Source of the DNA: the human T2T-CHM13v2.0 reference genome, Homo sapiens
Direction: 5' to 3' (one strand)
Assembly: GCF_009914755.1 (NCBI RefSeq)
Contig: NC_060935.1
Length of the DNA: 64,000 bases
Made by a program: the position numbers and the translations under genes. The notes beneath the pieces were generated by a model, which saw only the letters and a list, made by a program, of their open reading frames with translations, did not search any database and was not told the DNA's origin. Below, one piece after another: positions 14,820 to 15,480 of this stretch. How positions within the stretch are numbered: position 1 is the first letter of the stretch; the number at the start of each line of letters is the position of its first letter.

Positions 14820-15480
14820 TTGTGCGTGTCTGTGTGTATGTATGTGTGTGTGTGTGTGCATATGTGTGGACTTGCTTGCAGTAATAACTTGGAAACTGTT
14901 TAATAACTCCCTCTGGAACTCTGACACTACCAGAAGAATGCCCATTCTATTTCCACACTCACATCCAATAAAATTTCCTTTGCTAATTCTCATATTAGGC
15001 CTGAGCCTGAGACATTAGTGCACGTAGCAAGGACATTTTAAGCCAAAGAGAAGAGCCAACAATGATGTAACTCTCTTAGTCAGCCCTTTCCAACATGAAG
15101 GCTGAAGAGAAGACATTGAAATCTGGTATAATTTATTTTCAGGAGGACTTTGCCTTCAAGCACCATATTTCCCCACCATTATATATGCTGAGGCCCAGCT
15201 ACCCAGTCTCAGATGGTGTAAATTCATGTTGGACACTGAAGGATTTAGGTAAGAATATTGAACTGTCAGAGTGTGAGATATTATGGATTATACATGAATA
15301 TGATGAGCATGAAAAATGTGTCAAGTGTCTAAGATATGGCAAAAATAGTTGAAAACTTTAGCAACAGGAAACCAAAAAAAAATGGATGTTAAACACCGGG
15401 AAATAAGTAATATCTTCATGGAAAGGAACCACAGCAATGGGGTCAGCATAATAAAAGAGAAGGCAGTTTGTATTTGATAG
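14820..15480 (+). promoter_or_regulatory. Orphan OR-type promoter module (copy 2)
   Basis: TG-rich tract, AACTGTTTAATAACTCCCTCTGGA at 14894-14917, donor tag|gtaaga at 15249; patchy homology over ~600 bp to 28140-28750. Confidence 0.55.

What the first reader, a model, noticed from the sequence alone, without database searches (positions are those of the whole stretch)
14820..15480. Orphan OR promoter module: five modules for four genes
Seen: this copy keeps the composite motif, with the best O/E match of the five (TCCCTCTGGA), and the downstream block (atccaataaaatttcctttgctaattctcatattaggcctgagcc vs gtccaataacattctctttccaattcataaattaagcatgagcc at 28250). It also has a near-consensus donor TAG|GTAAGA at 15249 and further homology (ggatgttaaacac ~15385 vs gggtgttaaacat ~28668). 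No OR coding remnant is visible between it and the next module at 28.2 kb. Inference: it is (a) the relic of a deleted OR4D gene, (b) a distal alternative promoter splicing ~17 kb to OR4D10, or (c) a promoter retained as an enhancer or non-coding 'decoy' choice locus.
Basis: partly seen in the sequence, partly recalled or inferred. Interest (0 to 1): 0.8.

Follow-up and report, generated by a model that had tools for sequence, protein, structure and literature searches.

The report
Leftover promoter of a lost smell-receptor gene
A fifth copy of the promoter and first exon shared by the OR4D smell-receptor genes stands without a coding exon, at the spot where mouse and rat keep an intact gene (Or4z4), so it is most likely the remnant of a receptor gene lost on the way to humans.

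Summary
The window holds exactly five paralogous + strand promoter/first-exon modules: 3841-4269, 14789-15258, 28102-28528, 41700-42134 and 52720-53136. It holds only four OR coding regions. A profile built without the orphan copy finds it at E 2.4e-48, and 0 of 300 shuffles reach the observed alignment scores. The orphan keeps the juxtaposed homeodomain/O-E motif, the downstream block and the exon-1 splice donor homologous to the one OR4D10 uses. No OR coding remnant lies between 12.7 and 32.3 kb.

Published tables explain it. In mouse and rat the order is Or5a1, Or4d6, Or4z4, then the Or4d10 group. Or4z4 (Olfr1427/Olr324) is intact, and in mouse it is expressed. It was named from a dog gene because it did not meet the 80% identity criteria against human ORs. 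The orphan module occupies that slot.

Best reading (0.58): it is the promoter and non-coding first exon of the lost human Or4z4 counterpart, whose coding exon was physically deleted. It has not decayed more than the gene-linked copies, but the test cannot exclude roughly 100 My of neutral drift. Use as a distal OR4D10 exon or as an enhancer is untested, and curated human annotation shows no exon there. Interest is moderate to low.

The parts
14789..15258 (+). Orphan module M2: OR4D-type promoter plus non-coding first exon, with no coding exon
   Evidence: The leave-M2-out nhmmer profile matches positions 7-429 of 442 at E 2.4e-48. blastn gives E 1e-11 to 1e-21 against the four other modules. 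0 of 300 shuffles reach the observed scores.
14821..14868 (+). (TG)n-rich tract at the 5' edge of the module
   Evidence: TRF finds period 2 with 19 copies. A GT-rich tract stands at the same place in M1, M3 and M4, with a short one in M5 (alignment A1).
14894..14919 (+). Juxtaposed extended homeodomain site and O/E-like site (AACTGTTTAATAACTCCCTCTGGAAC)
   Evidence: [quoted passage not shown] It matches 17 of 26 positions of the Sfaktiria composite probe, in the same register, with a pyrimidine run followed by a purine run. Its O/E site has 1 mismatch, the best of the five.
14964..15008 (+). Conserved downstream block (TCCAATAA ... GCTAATTC ... ATATTAGG ... TGAGCC)
   Evidence: It aligns with 28239-28282 and the matching blocks of M1, M4 and M5, with many invariant columns. 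The CCAAT-like and TATA-like reading is my inference.
15246..15254 (+). Exon-1 splice donor TAG|GTAAGA
   Evidence: It lies in the same alignment columns as the donor OR4D10 uses (TAG|GTAAAG at 28513/28514) and as TAG|GTAAAA in M5. The pseudogene-linked M4 has AAA|CTAAAG there.
15281..15422 (+). Weak homology to OR4D10 intron 1 and exon 2, with the exon-2 splice signals not kept
   Evidence: blastn gives 60% identity over 145 nt, E 0.009, collinear with the main match. 0 of 500 shuffles reach the score against M3 only. Where OR4D10 has AAAG|GTGGGT, the orphan has AAAA ATGGAT.
15423..28101 (.). Stretch where the coding exon would be expected. No OR coding remnant. 18.6-23.7 kb is almost wholly interspersed repeats. 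23969-28186 belongs to the younger OR4D10/OR4D8P duplication unit.
   Evidence: tblastn, the nhmmer CDS profile, repeat coverage and collinear matches, and the NCBI masked intervals given with the finding.
3841..4269 (+). Module M1, 7.5 kb upstream of the OR4D6 coding region. It is the most diverged copy.
   Evidence: Profile hit at E 1e-84. It has the longest branch in the trees.
28102..28528 (+). Module M3, the OR4D10 promoter and exon 1 (annotated exon 28187-28513)
   Evidence: Profile hit. RefSeq annotation given with the finding. HAVANA exons in GRCh38.
41700..42134 (+). Module M4, upstream of the pseudogene OR4D8P
   Evidence: Profile hit. It is 82% identical to M3 over 27864-28683.
52720..53136 (+). 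Module M5, upstream of OR4D11
   Evidence: Profile hit at E 2.2e-94.

Best explanation
The element at 14789-15258 is the promoter and non-coding first exon of an OR gene that no longer has a coding exon. It is most probably the human counterpart of rodent Or4z4 (mouse Olfr1427, rat Olr324). That gene sat between OR4D6 and OR4D10 in the ancestral tandem array. On the lineage to humans its coding exon, expected some 4-5 kb downstream, was physically removed. That stretch is now filled with Alu and L1-type repeats. What survives is the 5' module: an extended homeodomain (LHX2-type) site abutting an O/E (EBF-type) site, a conserved block just downstream, and the exon-1 splice donor. The module was under purifying selection for most of its history, which is why it is still alignable. 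Today it is most likely an inert or only weakly transcribed relic.

Shown: the homology, the missing coding sequence, the intact motifs and the rodent gene order.
Inferred: orthology to Or4z4, loss by deletion, and present inactivity.
For: 1. Five modules stand against four coding regions, with the statistics given under the observation check.

2. No OR coding remnant lies between 12.7 and 32.3 kb. The four known coding regions score E 0 to 1e-298 with the same profile.

3. Gene order. The Olender 2020 supplement lists, on the mouse chr19 minus strand, Or5a1 (Olfr76), Or4d6 (Olfr1428), Or4z4 (Olfr1427, MOR239-4), Or4d10c, Or4d10, Or4d10b and Or4d11. Rat chr1 has the same order, with Or4z4 as Olr324. 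The human window reads OR5A1, OR4D6, [orphan], OR4D10, OR4D8P, OR4D11.

4. Or4z4 was named at step 3 from a dog gene. It therefore failed the >=80% mutual-best and second-best tests against human ORs. OR4D6 and Olfr1428 form a one-to-one group across dog, mouse, rat, marmoset, macaque and human, which anchors the synteny.

5. Mouse Olfr1427 is expressed at about 324 normalised counts. Its curated transcript starts 3.7 kb upstream of its ATG. In the window the other modules lie 4.1 to 7.9 kb from their ATGs.

6. Introns and intergenic DNA of the old paralogues no longer align. Only the modules and the coding regions do. The module lineage was therefore constrained for most of the time since duplication.

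7. The orphan has the shortest terminal branch of the old lineages, 0.37 against 0.52 and 0.93 in one tree. It matches 50 of 58 (86%) of the columns invariant in M1, M3 and M5; the gene-linked copies score 77-82% in the same test. Loss therefore came late relative to the age of the paralogues.

8. HAVANA and RefSeq hold no exon at this place (and the table given with the finding).
Against: - Orthology to Or4z4 rests on gene order alone. I could not align the mouse or rat promoter or coding sequence with the human stretch, and I saw no primate, dog or cow gene order.
- The tree does not resolve where the orphan branches (bootstrap 32-53). The lost gene could instead have been another OR4D10-like copy.
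- No deletion scar or breakpoint was found.
- The motif, donor and conserved columns are as well kept as in the gene-linked copies. The pseudogene-linked M4, which is much younger, has already lost its exon-1 donor. This fits continued use as well as it fits a recent loss.
- The absence of an annotated exon is weak evidence. The OR4D10 model itself is tagged 'RNA_Seq_supported_partial', and OR4D6 and OR4D11 have no 5' exons annotated at all.
Confidence: 0.58

Rival explanations
1. The module is still used as a distal alternative promoter and first exon of OR4D10. Transcripts start near 14.9-15.0 kb and splice from 15248|15249 across about 13-17 kb to OR4D10 exon 2 (28611) or exon 3 (32139). 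This could be a relic that was captured, or an old promoter duplication of the OR4D10 ancestor.
For: - The donor TAG|GTAAGA is intact and closer to the consensus than the donor OR4D10 uses, TAG|GTAAAG (the consensus is recalled).
- In the core, the orphan is nearest to the OR4D10/OR4D8P modules, 66.7-68.3% against 59-62% for other old pairs.
- It alone shares extra homology past the donor with the OR4D10 copy.
- With Alu and L1-type repeats removed, the orphan and the OR4D10 promoter were only about 5 kb apart. This is my estimate.
- OR genes have one to six alternatively spliced 5' exons, and 7 human loci share 5' UTR exons with a neighbour.
- Of OR4D6, OR4D10, OR4D8P and OR4D11, only OR4D10 has appreciable expression in human olfactory samples.
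Against: - The HAVANA set built with human olfactory RNA-seq has one OR4D10 transcript with three exons and none upstream. RefSeq agrees (and the finding's table).
- The homologue of the OR4D10 exon-2 donor is destroyed in the orphan.
- Rodent gene order gives a simpler origin.
- Shared or distal 5' exons are rare: 7 loci among 874.
Confidence: 0.14
2. The relic has been kept as a gene-less regulatory element. It would be bound cooperatively by LHX2 and EBF at its juxtaposed sites and act as a local enhancer for the neighbouring OR4D genes. Alternatively it would act as a decoy that can be chosen without giving a receptor, so that the neuron chooses again.
For: - All five modules carry the homeodomain site directly abutting a pyrimidine-run/purine-run O/E-like site, in the same register as the Sfaktiria composite probe that binds the LHX2-EBF fusion.
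- The orphan has the best O/E match of the five. A second one-mismatch O/E site lies at 14636 and two two-mismatch sites at 14508 and 14545. The four gene-linked modules have none at one mismatch.
- The orphan is no more decayed than the gene-linked modules.
Against: - No binding, accessibility or conservation data could be seen.
- None of the 63 mouse Greek Islands or the 14 rejected candidates lies in chr19:12.03-12.12 Mb, where Or4z4 and the Or4d genes sit. The nearest listed is Rho at 12.83 Mb.
- Two O/E sites within 600 bp is not unusual. The same count occurs at 48-49.5 kb.
- I could not score the motif with the published matrix.
- Intact motifs are compatible with neutral drift. I estimate a 12-base motif survives about 12-15% divergence with a chance of about 0.15-0.2; the rate is recalled, not computed here.
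Confidence: 0.13
3. The module never had its own coding exon. A partial duplication copied only the promoter and exon-1 region of an OR4D gene. The rodent Or4z4 gene is then unrelated to it.
For: - Homology to the other units is confined to about 650 bp.
- No collinear non-repeat homology to any intron or 3' flank of another unit was found in 15.4-23.9 kb.
- Rearrangements with odd end points occur in this cluster. The OR4D10/OR4D8P duplication ends exactly at the stop codon.
Against: - Homology between the old gene-linked units is confined in the same way to the module and the coding region, so this says nothing special about the orphan.
- A gene-less copy as old as the M5 versus M3 split would have decayed like the introns, yet it has the shortest branch.
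- Rodents have a gene in that slot.
Confidence: 0.08

Closest known systems
OR4D10 promoter and first non-coding exon (window 28102-28528; annotated exon 1 at 28187-28513)
   Same: The architecture is the same and collinear: a GT-rich tract, AAC(N)TTTTAATAACTCCC with an O/E-like site, the TCCAATAA/GCTAATT/TGAGCC block, and an exon-1 donor about 330-340 nt after the motif. Core identity is 66.7%.
   Different: The OR4D10 copy is followed by exon 2 and a coding exon 4.1 kb downstream and is transcribed in human olfactory tissue. The orphan has no coding exon, has lost the exon-2 donor, and has a better O/E match.
Mouse Olfr1427 / Or4z4 (MOR239-4) and rat Olr324 / Or4z4
   Same: They occupy the same slot in the array, directly after the OR4D6 orthologue and before the Or4d10 group, in the same orientation. 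They belong to the same MOR239 group as the Or4d genes. The mouse TSS lies 3.7 kb from the ATG, similar to the human units.
   Different: The rodent genes are intact, and the mouse gene is expressed. The human locus has only the 5' module. Sequence-level orthology of the promoters was not tested.
Greek Island OR enhancers with the LHX2/EBF composite motif (Monahan et al. 2017), including the 10 of 63 that lie within 500 bp of an OR TSS
   Same: [quoted passage not shown] The element lies within an OR cluster.
   Different: There are no binding or accessibility data. The motif is shared with four ordinary gene-linked promoters in the same cluster. No island is listed in the orthologous mouse stretch.
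Unprocessed or unitary OR pseudogenes, such as OR4D8P in this window
   Same: Both are products of OR gene loss in the human lineage. OR4D8P also keeps a recognisable module, M4.
   Different: A pseudogene keeps a disrupted coding region. OR4D8P has an in-frame stop and a frameshift. Here the coding region is absent altogether, so the locus is in no OR catalogue: Niimura numbering runs HsOR11.13.7 = OR4D6, HsOR11.13.8 = OR4D10.
OR loci that share 5' UTR exons with a neighbouring gene (7 human and 7 mouse loci, Barnes et al. 2020)
   Same: This is a precedent for an upstream first exon serving a coding exon that lies beyond another promoter.
   Different: No transcript of that kind is annotated here.

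Membership tests
OR gene proximal promoter with non-coding first exon (homeodomain + O/E type) | Homeodomain (TAAT-type) and O/E-like sites close to the transcription start | tested here: met
   AACTGTTTAATAACTCCCTCTGGAAC lies at 14894-14919. It matches 11 of 13 positions of the extended homeodomain site quoted in PMC7804114 and has an O/E site with 1 mismatch.
OR gene proximal promoter with non-coding first exon (homeodomain + O/E type) | Homology to promoters with transcript support | tested here: met
   It matches the OR4D10 exon-1 region, which RefSeq and HAVANA annotate from RNA-seq.
OR gene proximal promoter with non-coding first exon (homeodomain + O/E type) | Splice donor ending the first exon | tested here: met
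   TAG|GTAAGA at 15246-15254 lies in the same columns as the OR4D10 and M5 donors.
OR gene proximal promoter with non-coding first exon (homeodomain + O/E type) | An OR coding exon a few kb downstream on the same strand | tested here: not met
   No OR-like coding sequence lies between 12.7 and 32.3 kb. The next coding region is OR4D10, 17.4 kb away and behind its own promoter.
OR gene proximal promoter with non-coding first exon (homeodomain + O/E type) | Transcription start in olfactory neurons | not testable with these tools
   No expression tracks are on hand. There is no exon here in HAVANA or RefSeq (and the finding's table).
Greek Island OR enhancer | LHX2/EBF composite motif with stereotyped spacing | tested here: inconclusive
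   It is in the same register as the Sfaktiria probe, 17 of 26 identical, with a pyrimidine run then a purine run. The published matrix was not available, so no score could be computed. All four gene-linked modules share the arrangement.
Greek Island OR enhancer | Co-binding of LHX2 and EBF and open chromatin in most mature olfactory neurons, within H3K9me3 domains | not testable with these tools
   No human data were seen. A literature search returned 51 papers, of which 15 were listed, and none maps human islands.
Greek Island OR enhancer | Intergenic, more than 500 bp from an OR TSS (true of 53 of 63 islands) | tested here: met
   No annotated OR TSS lies within 500 bp. The nearest annotated exons are OR4D6, ending at 12741, and OR4D10, starting at 28187 (the finding's table). 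This is only because its own gene is gone.
Unprocessed OR pseudogene | Recognisable, disrupted OR coding sequence | tested here: not met
   Searches find none. By contrast OR4D8P scores E 0 with the same profile.
Orthologue of rodent Or4z4 (Olfr1427/Olr324) | Same position and orientation in the conserved gene order | tested here: met
   Mouse and rat read Or5a1, Or4d6, Or4z4, Or4d10c. Human reads OR5A1, OR4D6, orphan, OR4D10. OR4D6 and Olfr1428 are one-to-one.
Orthologue of rodent Or4z4 (Olfr1427/Olr324) | Sequence alignment of the promoter and first exon with the rodent or dog gene | not testable with these tools
   No mammalian genome other than this window can be fetched here.

The most novel reading that the evidence does not exclude
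After the coding exon was lost, the orphan module was kept by selection as a gene-less element of OR choice. It would be a promoter-derived site, bound by LHX2 and EBF, that acts as a local enhancer for the OR4D genes or as a choosable 'empty' promoter that sends the neuron back to choose again. It would be a natural example of an OR promoter turning into a Greek-Island-like element.
Probability: 0.12. Interest if true: 0.75.

Novelty: new member of a known kind. Interest (0 to 1): 0.36.

Why it matters
It explains an apparent oddity, five promoters for four genes, as ordinary gene loss. It also adds a locus that OR catalogues cannot see, because they search for coding sequence only: the 5' end of a receptor gene that rodents still use.

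It gives a dated natural experiment. The same promoter type is present here with a working gene (OR4D10), with nearly silent genes (OR4D6, OR4D11), with a pseudogene (OR4D8P) and with no gene at all.

If olfactory neurons still open or choose the gene-less copy, one could ask in human tissue what a promoter alone contributes to receptor choice. One could also ask whether Greek-Island-type enhancers can arise from orphaned promoters. If it is silent and drifting, it is simply a relic.

Tried and rejected
- Decay in place of a pseudogene was rejected. tblastn at word size 2 and E up to 100, and nhmmer --max, give only chance-level matches in 12.7-32.3 kb.
- I searched for collinear non-repeat homology between 15.4-23.9 kb and the introns or 3' flanks of the other units, using blastn with word 7 and 1/-1 scoring. 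It found only Alu and L1-type families and one 0.7-kb element (18628-18983 plus 22012-22340 against 37885-37151, inverted) split by a repeat block. No deletion scar could be defined.
- An 'X' block (19692-20049, 23920-24161, 38225-38491, 61479-61798) looked at first like a landmark downstream of genes. Its copy at 19.7 kb lies in intervals that NCBI masks as repeats, so I dropped it (and the finding's table).
- The Alu at 15494 and the Alu at 42327 sit at similar offsets from their modules. The OR4D10 copy lacks one, so they are independent insertions and not shared ancestry.
- The tree of the five modules is a star (bootstrap 32-53), so it does not say which gene the orphan was closest to.
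- O/E site clustering around the orphan is not significant on its own.
- Literature: OR4D6 + OR4D10 gave 5 papers, none on this locus. 'Or4d29' gave 0. Olfr1426/1427/1428 gave 0 in main texts. The search for human Greek Islands gave nothing relevant among the 15 listed of 51.
- The earlier-findings tool was not open.
- The OR4Z symbols in the held nomenclature file were found only for mouse and rat (3 occurrences). I could not see the dog, cow, horse, chimpanzee or orangutan rows and do not know whether the stored file holds them.
The OR4D queries belong to the same MOR239 group, so I expect they would have found a remnant.

Full report
**What is there.** The window is the human OR5A1-OR4D cluster; the annotation was given with the finding. 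The stretch 14789-15258 is one of exactly five paralogous + strand modules:

| Module | Position | Linked gene |
|---|---|---|
| M1 | 3841-4269 | 7.5 kb before the OR4D6 coding region |
| M2 | 14789-15258 | none (the orphan) |
| M3 | 28102-28528 | OR4D10 promoter and annotated exon 1 |
| M4 | 41700-42134 | before the pseudogene OR4D8P |
| M5 | 52720-53136 | before OR4D11 |

blastn of 14700-15600 against the window gave E 2.8e-21 (M4), 1.1e-15 (M5), 8.2e-12 (M3) and 5.9e-11 (M1). With the (TG)n tract left out, 0 of 300 dinucleotide shuffles reached the observed local score against any module, z 11.8-30.8. A profile built from M1, M3, M4 and M5 alone finds M2 over nearly its whole length at E 2.4e-48, and it finds no sixth copy. 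The 12-mer TTAAT[AT]ACTCCC occurs five times in the 64 kb, once per module.

**Anatomy.** Each module has the following parts, in order (alignment A1; TRF):
- a GT-rich tract;
- AAC(N)TTTTAAT(A/T)ACTCCC followed by a short pyrimidine run and a purine run;
- a conserved block, TCCAATAA..GCTAATTC..TGAGCC.

M2, M3 and M5 also have an exon-1 donor, AG|GTAA, about 330-340 nt after the motif.

[quoted passage not shown] M1 matches 12 of 13 positions, M2, M3 and M4 match 11, and M5 matches 10 (passage in PMC7804114). The whole motif sits in the same register as the Sfaktiria composite LHX2/EBF probe of Monahan 2017 (supplementary file 7; 15-17 of 26 identical).

M2 has the best O/E match of the five, TCCCTCTGGA with one mismatch. 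A second one-mismatch site lies at 14636. The other four modules have none at one mismatch. Two such sites within 600 bp also occur elsewhere in the window, so the clustering itself is not significant.

M2's donor TAG|GTAAGA is homologous to the donor OR4D10 uses, TAG|GTAAAG at 28513/28514. M4, linked to the pseudogene, has AAA|CTAAAG there. Past the donor, M2 keeps weak homology with the OR4D10 copy only: 0 of 500 shuffles against M3, but 65, 322 and 366 of 500 against M4, M5 and M1. The OR4D10 exon-2 donor AAAG|GTGGGT reads AAAA ATGGAT in M2, so that exon is not preserved.

**No coding exon.** tblastn with the OR4D6, OR4D10 and OR4D11 proteins (word size 2, E up to 100) finds four coding regions. 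In 12.8-32.3 kb it finds nothing better than E about 0.7. The output was cut, so I did not see the OR4D11 rows for that stretch. An nhmmer --max profile of the four coding regions finds them at E 0 to 8e-298, and its next hit is E 0.65.

The stretch 18.6-23.7 kb is almost wholly interspersed repeats: Alu copies and an L1-like family present in both orientations, most of it masked by NCBI. The stretch 23969-33243 belongs to a younger duplication that gave 38299-47461, the OR4D10 and OR4D8P units, at about 72-90% identity. After subtracting repeats, the M2-to-M3 unit holds by my estimate about 4 kb less unique DNA than the M3-to-M4 unit. That is roughly the size of a coding exon with its flanks. 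This is an inference, not a measured deletion.

**Has it decayed?** Between the old paralogues (M1, M2, M3/M4, M5), introns and intergenic DNA no longer align. Only the modules and the coding regions do. The modules were therefore under purifying selection for most of the time since duplication.

M2 is not the odd one out:
- Its terminal branch is the shortest of the old lineages, 0.37 against 0.52 (M5) and 0.93 (M1), and 0.25 against 0.37 and 0.41 on the core alone.
- It matches 50 of 58 columns that are invariant in M1, M3 and M5 (86%). The reciprocal tests give 81% for M1, 77% for M3 and 82% for M5.

This rules out a copy that has been gene-less since the old duplication. It does not rule out a loss within roughly the last 100 My. 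From recalled substitution rates I expect only some 12-15% neutral change on the human lineage in that time, and a 12-base motif would survive that with a chance of about 0.15-0.2.

**The explanation from gene order.** The mouse table of Olender et al. 2020 (Additional file 1; passages seen) lists these genes on the chr19 minus strand, in transcription order:
- Or5a1 (Olfr76)
- Or4d6 (Olfr1428)
- Or4z4 (Olfr1427, MOR239-4)
- Or4d10c
- Or4d10
- Or4d10b
- Or4d11

The rat table lists the same order on chr1, with Or4z4 as Olr324. Or4z4 carries the flags '3, dog'. By the paper's method it failed the mutual-best and second-best tests at >=80% identity to human ORs and was named from a dog gene (main-text passages).

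OR4D6 and Olfr1428 form a one-to-one group across dog, mouse, rat, marmoset, macaque and human (OGG2-180, Saraiva 2019 supplement). In the Niimura numbering used there, OR4D6 is HsOR11.13.7 and OR4D10 is HsOR11.13.8, so no OR, not even a pseudogene, is catalogued between them. Olfr1427 is expressed in mouse olfactory mucosa at about 324 normalised counts. Its curated transcript starts 3.7 kb before its ATG.

The human order is OR5A1, OR4D6, [M2], OR4D10, OR4D8P, OR4D11. M2 stands exactly where rodents keep Or4z4. Orthology rests on position only.

**Present function.** The HAVANA gene set built with human olfactory RNA-seq holds one OR4D10 transcript with three exons that match the RefSeq model. 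It holds single-exon models for OR4D6, OR4D8P and OR4D11, and nothing at M2 (Barnes 2020 supplement).

The 12 columns of that paper's expression table give:

| Gene | Range of values |
|---|---|
| OR4D10 | 6.8-74 |
| OR4D6 | 0-4.9 |
| OR4D11 | 0-5.4 |
| OR4D8P | 0-0.5 |
| OR4D9 | 20-710 |

The OR4D10 model is tagged as only partially supported by RNA-seq, so the lack of an upstream exon is weak evidence. Shared 5' UTR exons between neighbouring ORs exist but are rare, 7 human loci.

[quoted passage not shown] However, none of the 63 islands or the 14 rejected candidates lies in mouse chr19:12.03-12.12 Mb. The motif arrangement is also common to the four ordinary promoters here. I found no map of human islands.

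**Verdict.** The best explanation (0.58) is an orphaned promoter and first exon of the lost human counterpart of Or4z4, with the coding exon physically removed, and now probably inert. Three rivals remain:
- continued use as a distal first exon of OR4D10 (0.14);
- retention as an enhancer or decoy (0.13);
- a promoter-only duplication that never had a gene (0.08).

I found no description of this relic: searches, and no exon in the annotation seen. It is a new member of a known kind, a remnant of lineage-specific OR gene loss. It would become interesting only if it proves to be transcribed, bound or constrained.

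Noticed in passing
window 23969-33243 and 38299-47461: The OR4D10 and OR4D8P units are a younger tandem duplication, 72-90% identical piece by piece. Homology stops exactly at the OR4D10 stop codon (33243 / 47461). The OR4D10 3' flank (33244-33395) instead matches the OR4D11 3' flank (59996-60147), so the OR4D8P 3' flank has been replaced or deleted.
   Followed up: partly
window 46531-47490 and 42095-42150: OR4D8P has an in-frame stop (QAG*GRR) and a frameshift near the NP motif of TM7. 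Its module M4 has lost the exon-1 donor (AAA|CTAAAG against TAG|GTAAAG in M3) but keeps the exon-2 donor and a duplicated exon-2 acceptor.
   Followed up: partly
window 3841-4269: Module M1, the presumed OR4D6 promoter, lies inside the long annotated last exon and 3' UTR of OR5A1 (-2026..6217). It is the most diverged copy: longest branch, purine run replaced by GCAT, and no clear donor. OR4D6 is nearly silent in the human expression table.
   Followed up: partly
window 48338-49105 and 61908-62670: An inverted repeat pair 94% identical over 769 nt, far closer than the other copies of the same L1-like family in the window (13-1311, 7078-7957, 20094-21217, 22349-23051 at 68-82%). It may be a recent inverted duplication or two young insertions flanking OR4D11.
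   Followed up: no
window 15494-15790 and 42327-42613: Alu elements stand at nearly the same offset (about +590 and +540) downstream of the motif in M2 and M4. M3 lacks one, so these are independent insertions at similar sites.
   Followed up: partly
window 18628-18983, 22012-22340 and 37151-37885: A 0.7-kb element present once, inverted, downstream of OR4D10 is split in the orphan's unit by about 3 kb of L1-like sequence. Its repeat family was not identified.
   Followed up: no
window 53835-53945: The annotated U6 snRNA copy lies about 0.7 kb downstream of module M5, inside what should be the OR4D11 5' intron (the finding's table).
   Followed up: no
window 14500-14650: Upstream of the orphan module lie a second TAAT-N3-TCCC arrangement (TAATTGCTCCC at 14538) and O/E-like sites at 14508 (2 mismatches) and 14636 (1 mismatch), next to an Alu fragment (14423-14500). 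The other four modules have no counterpart.
   Followed up: partly
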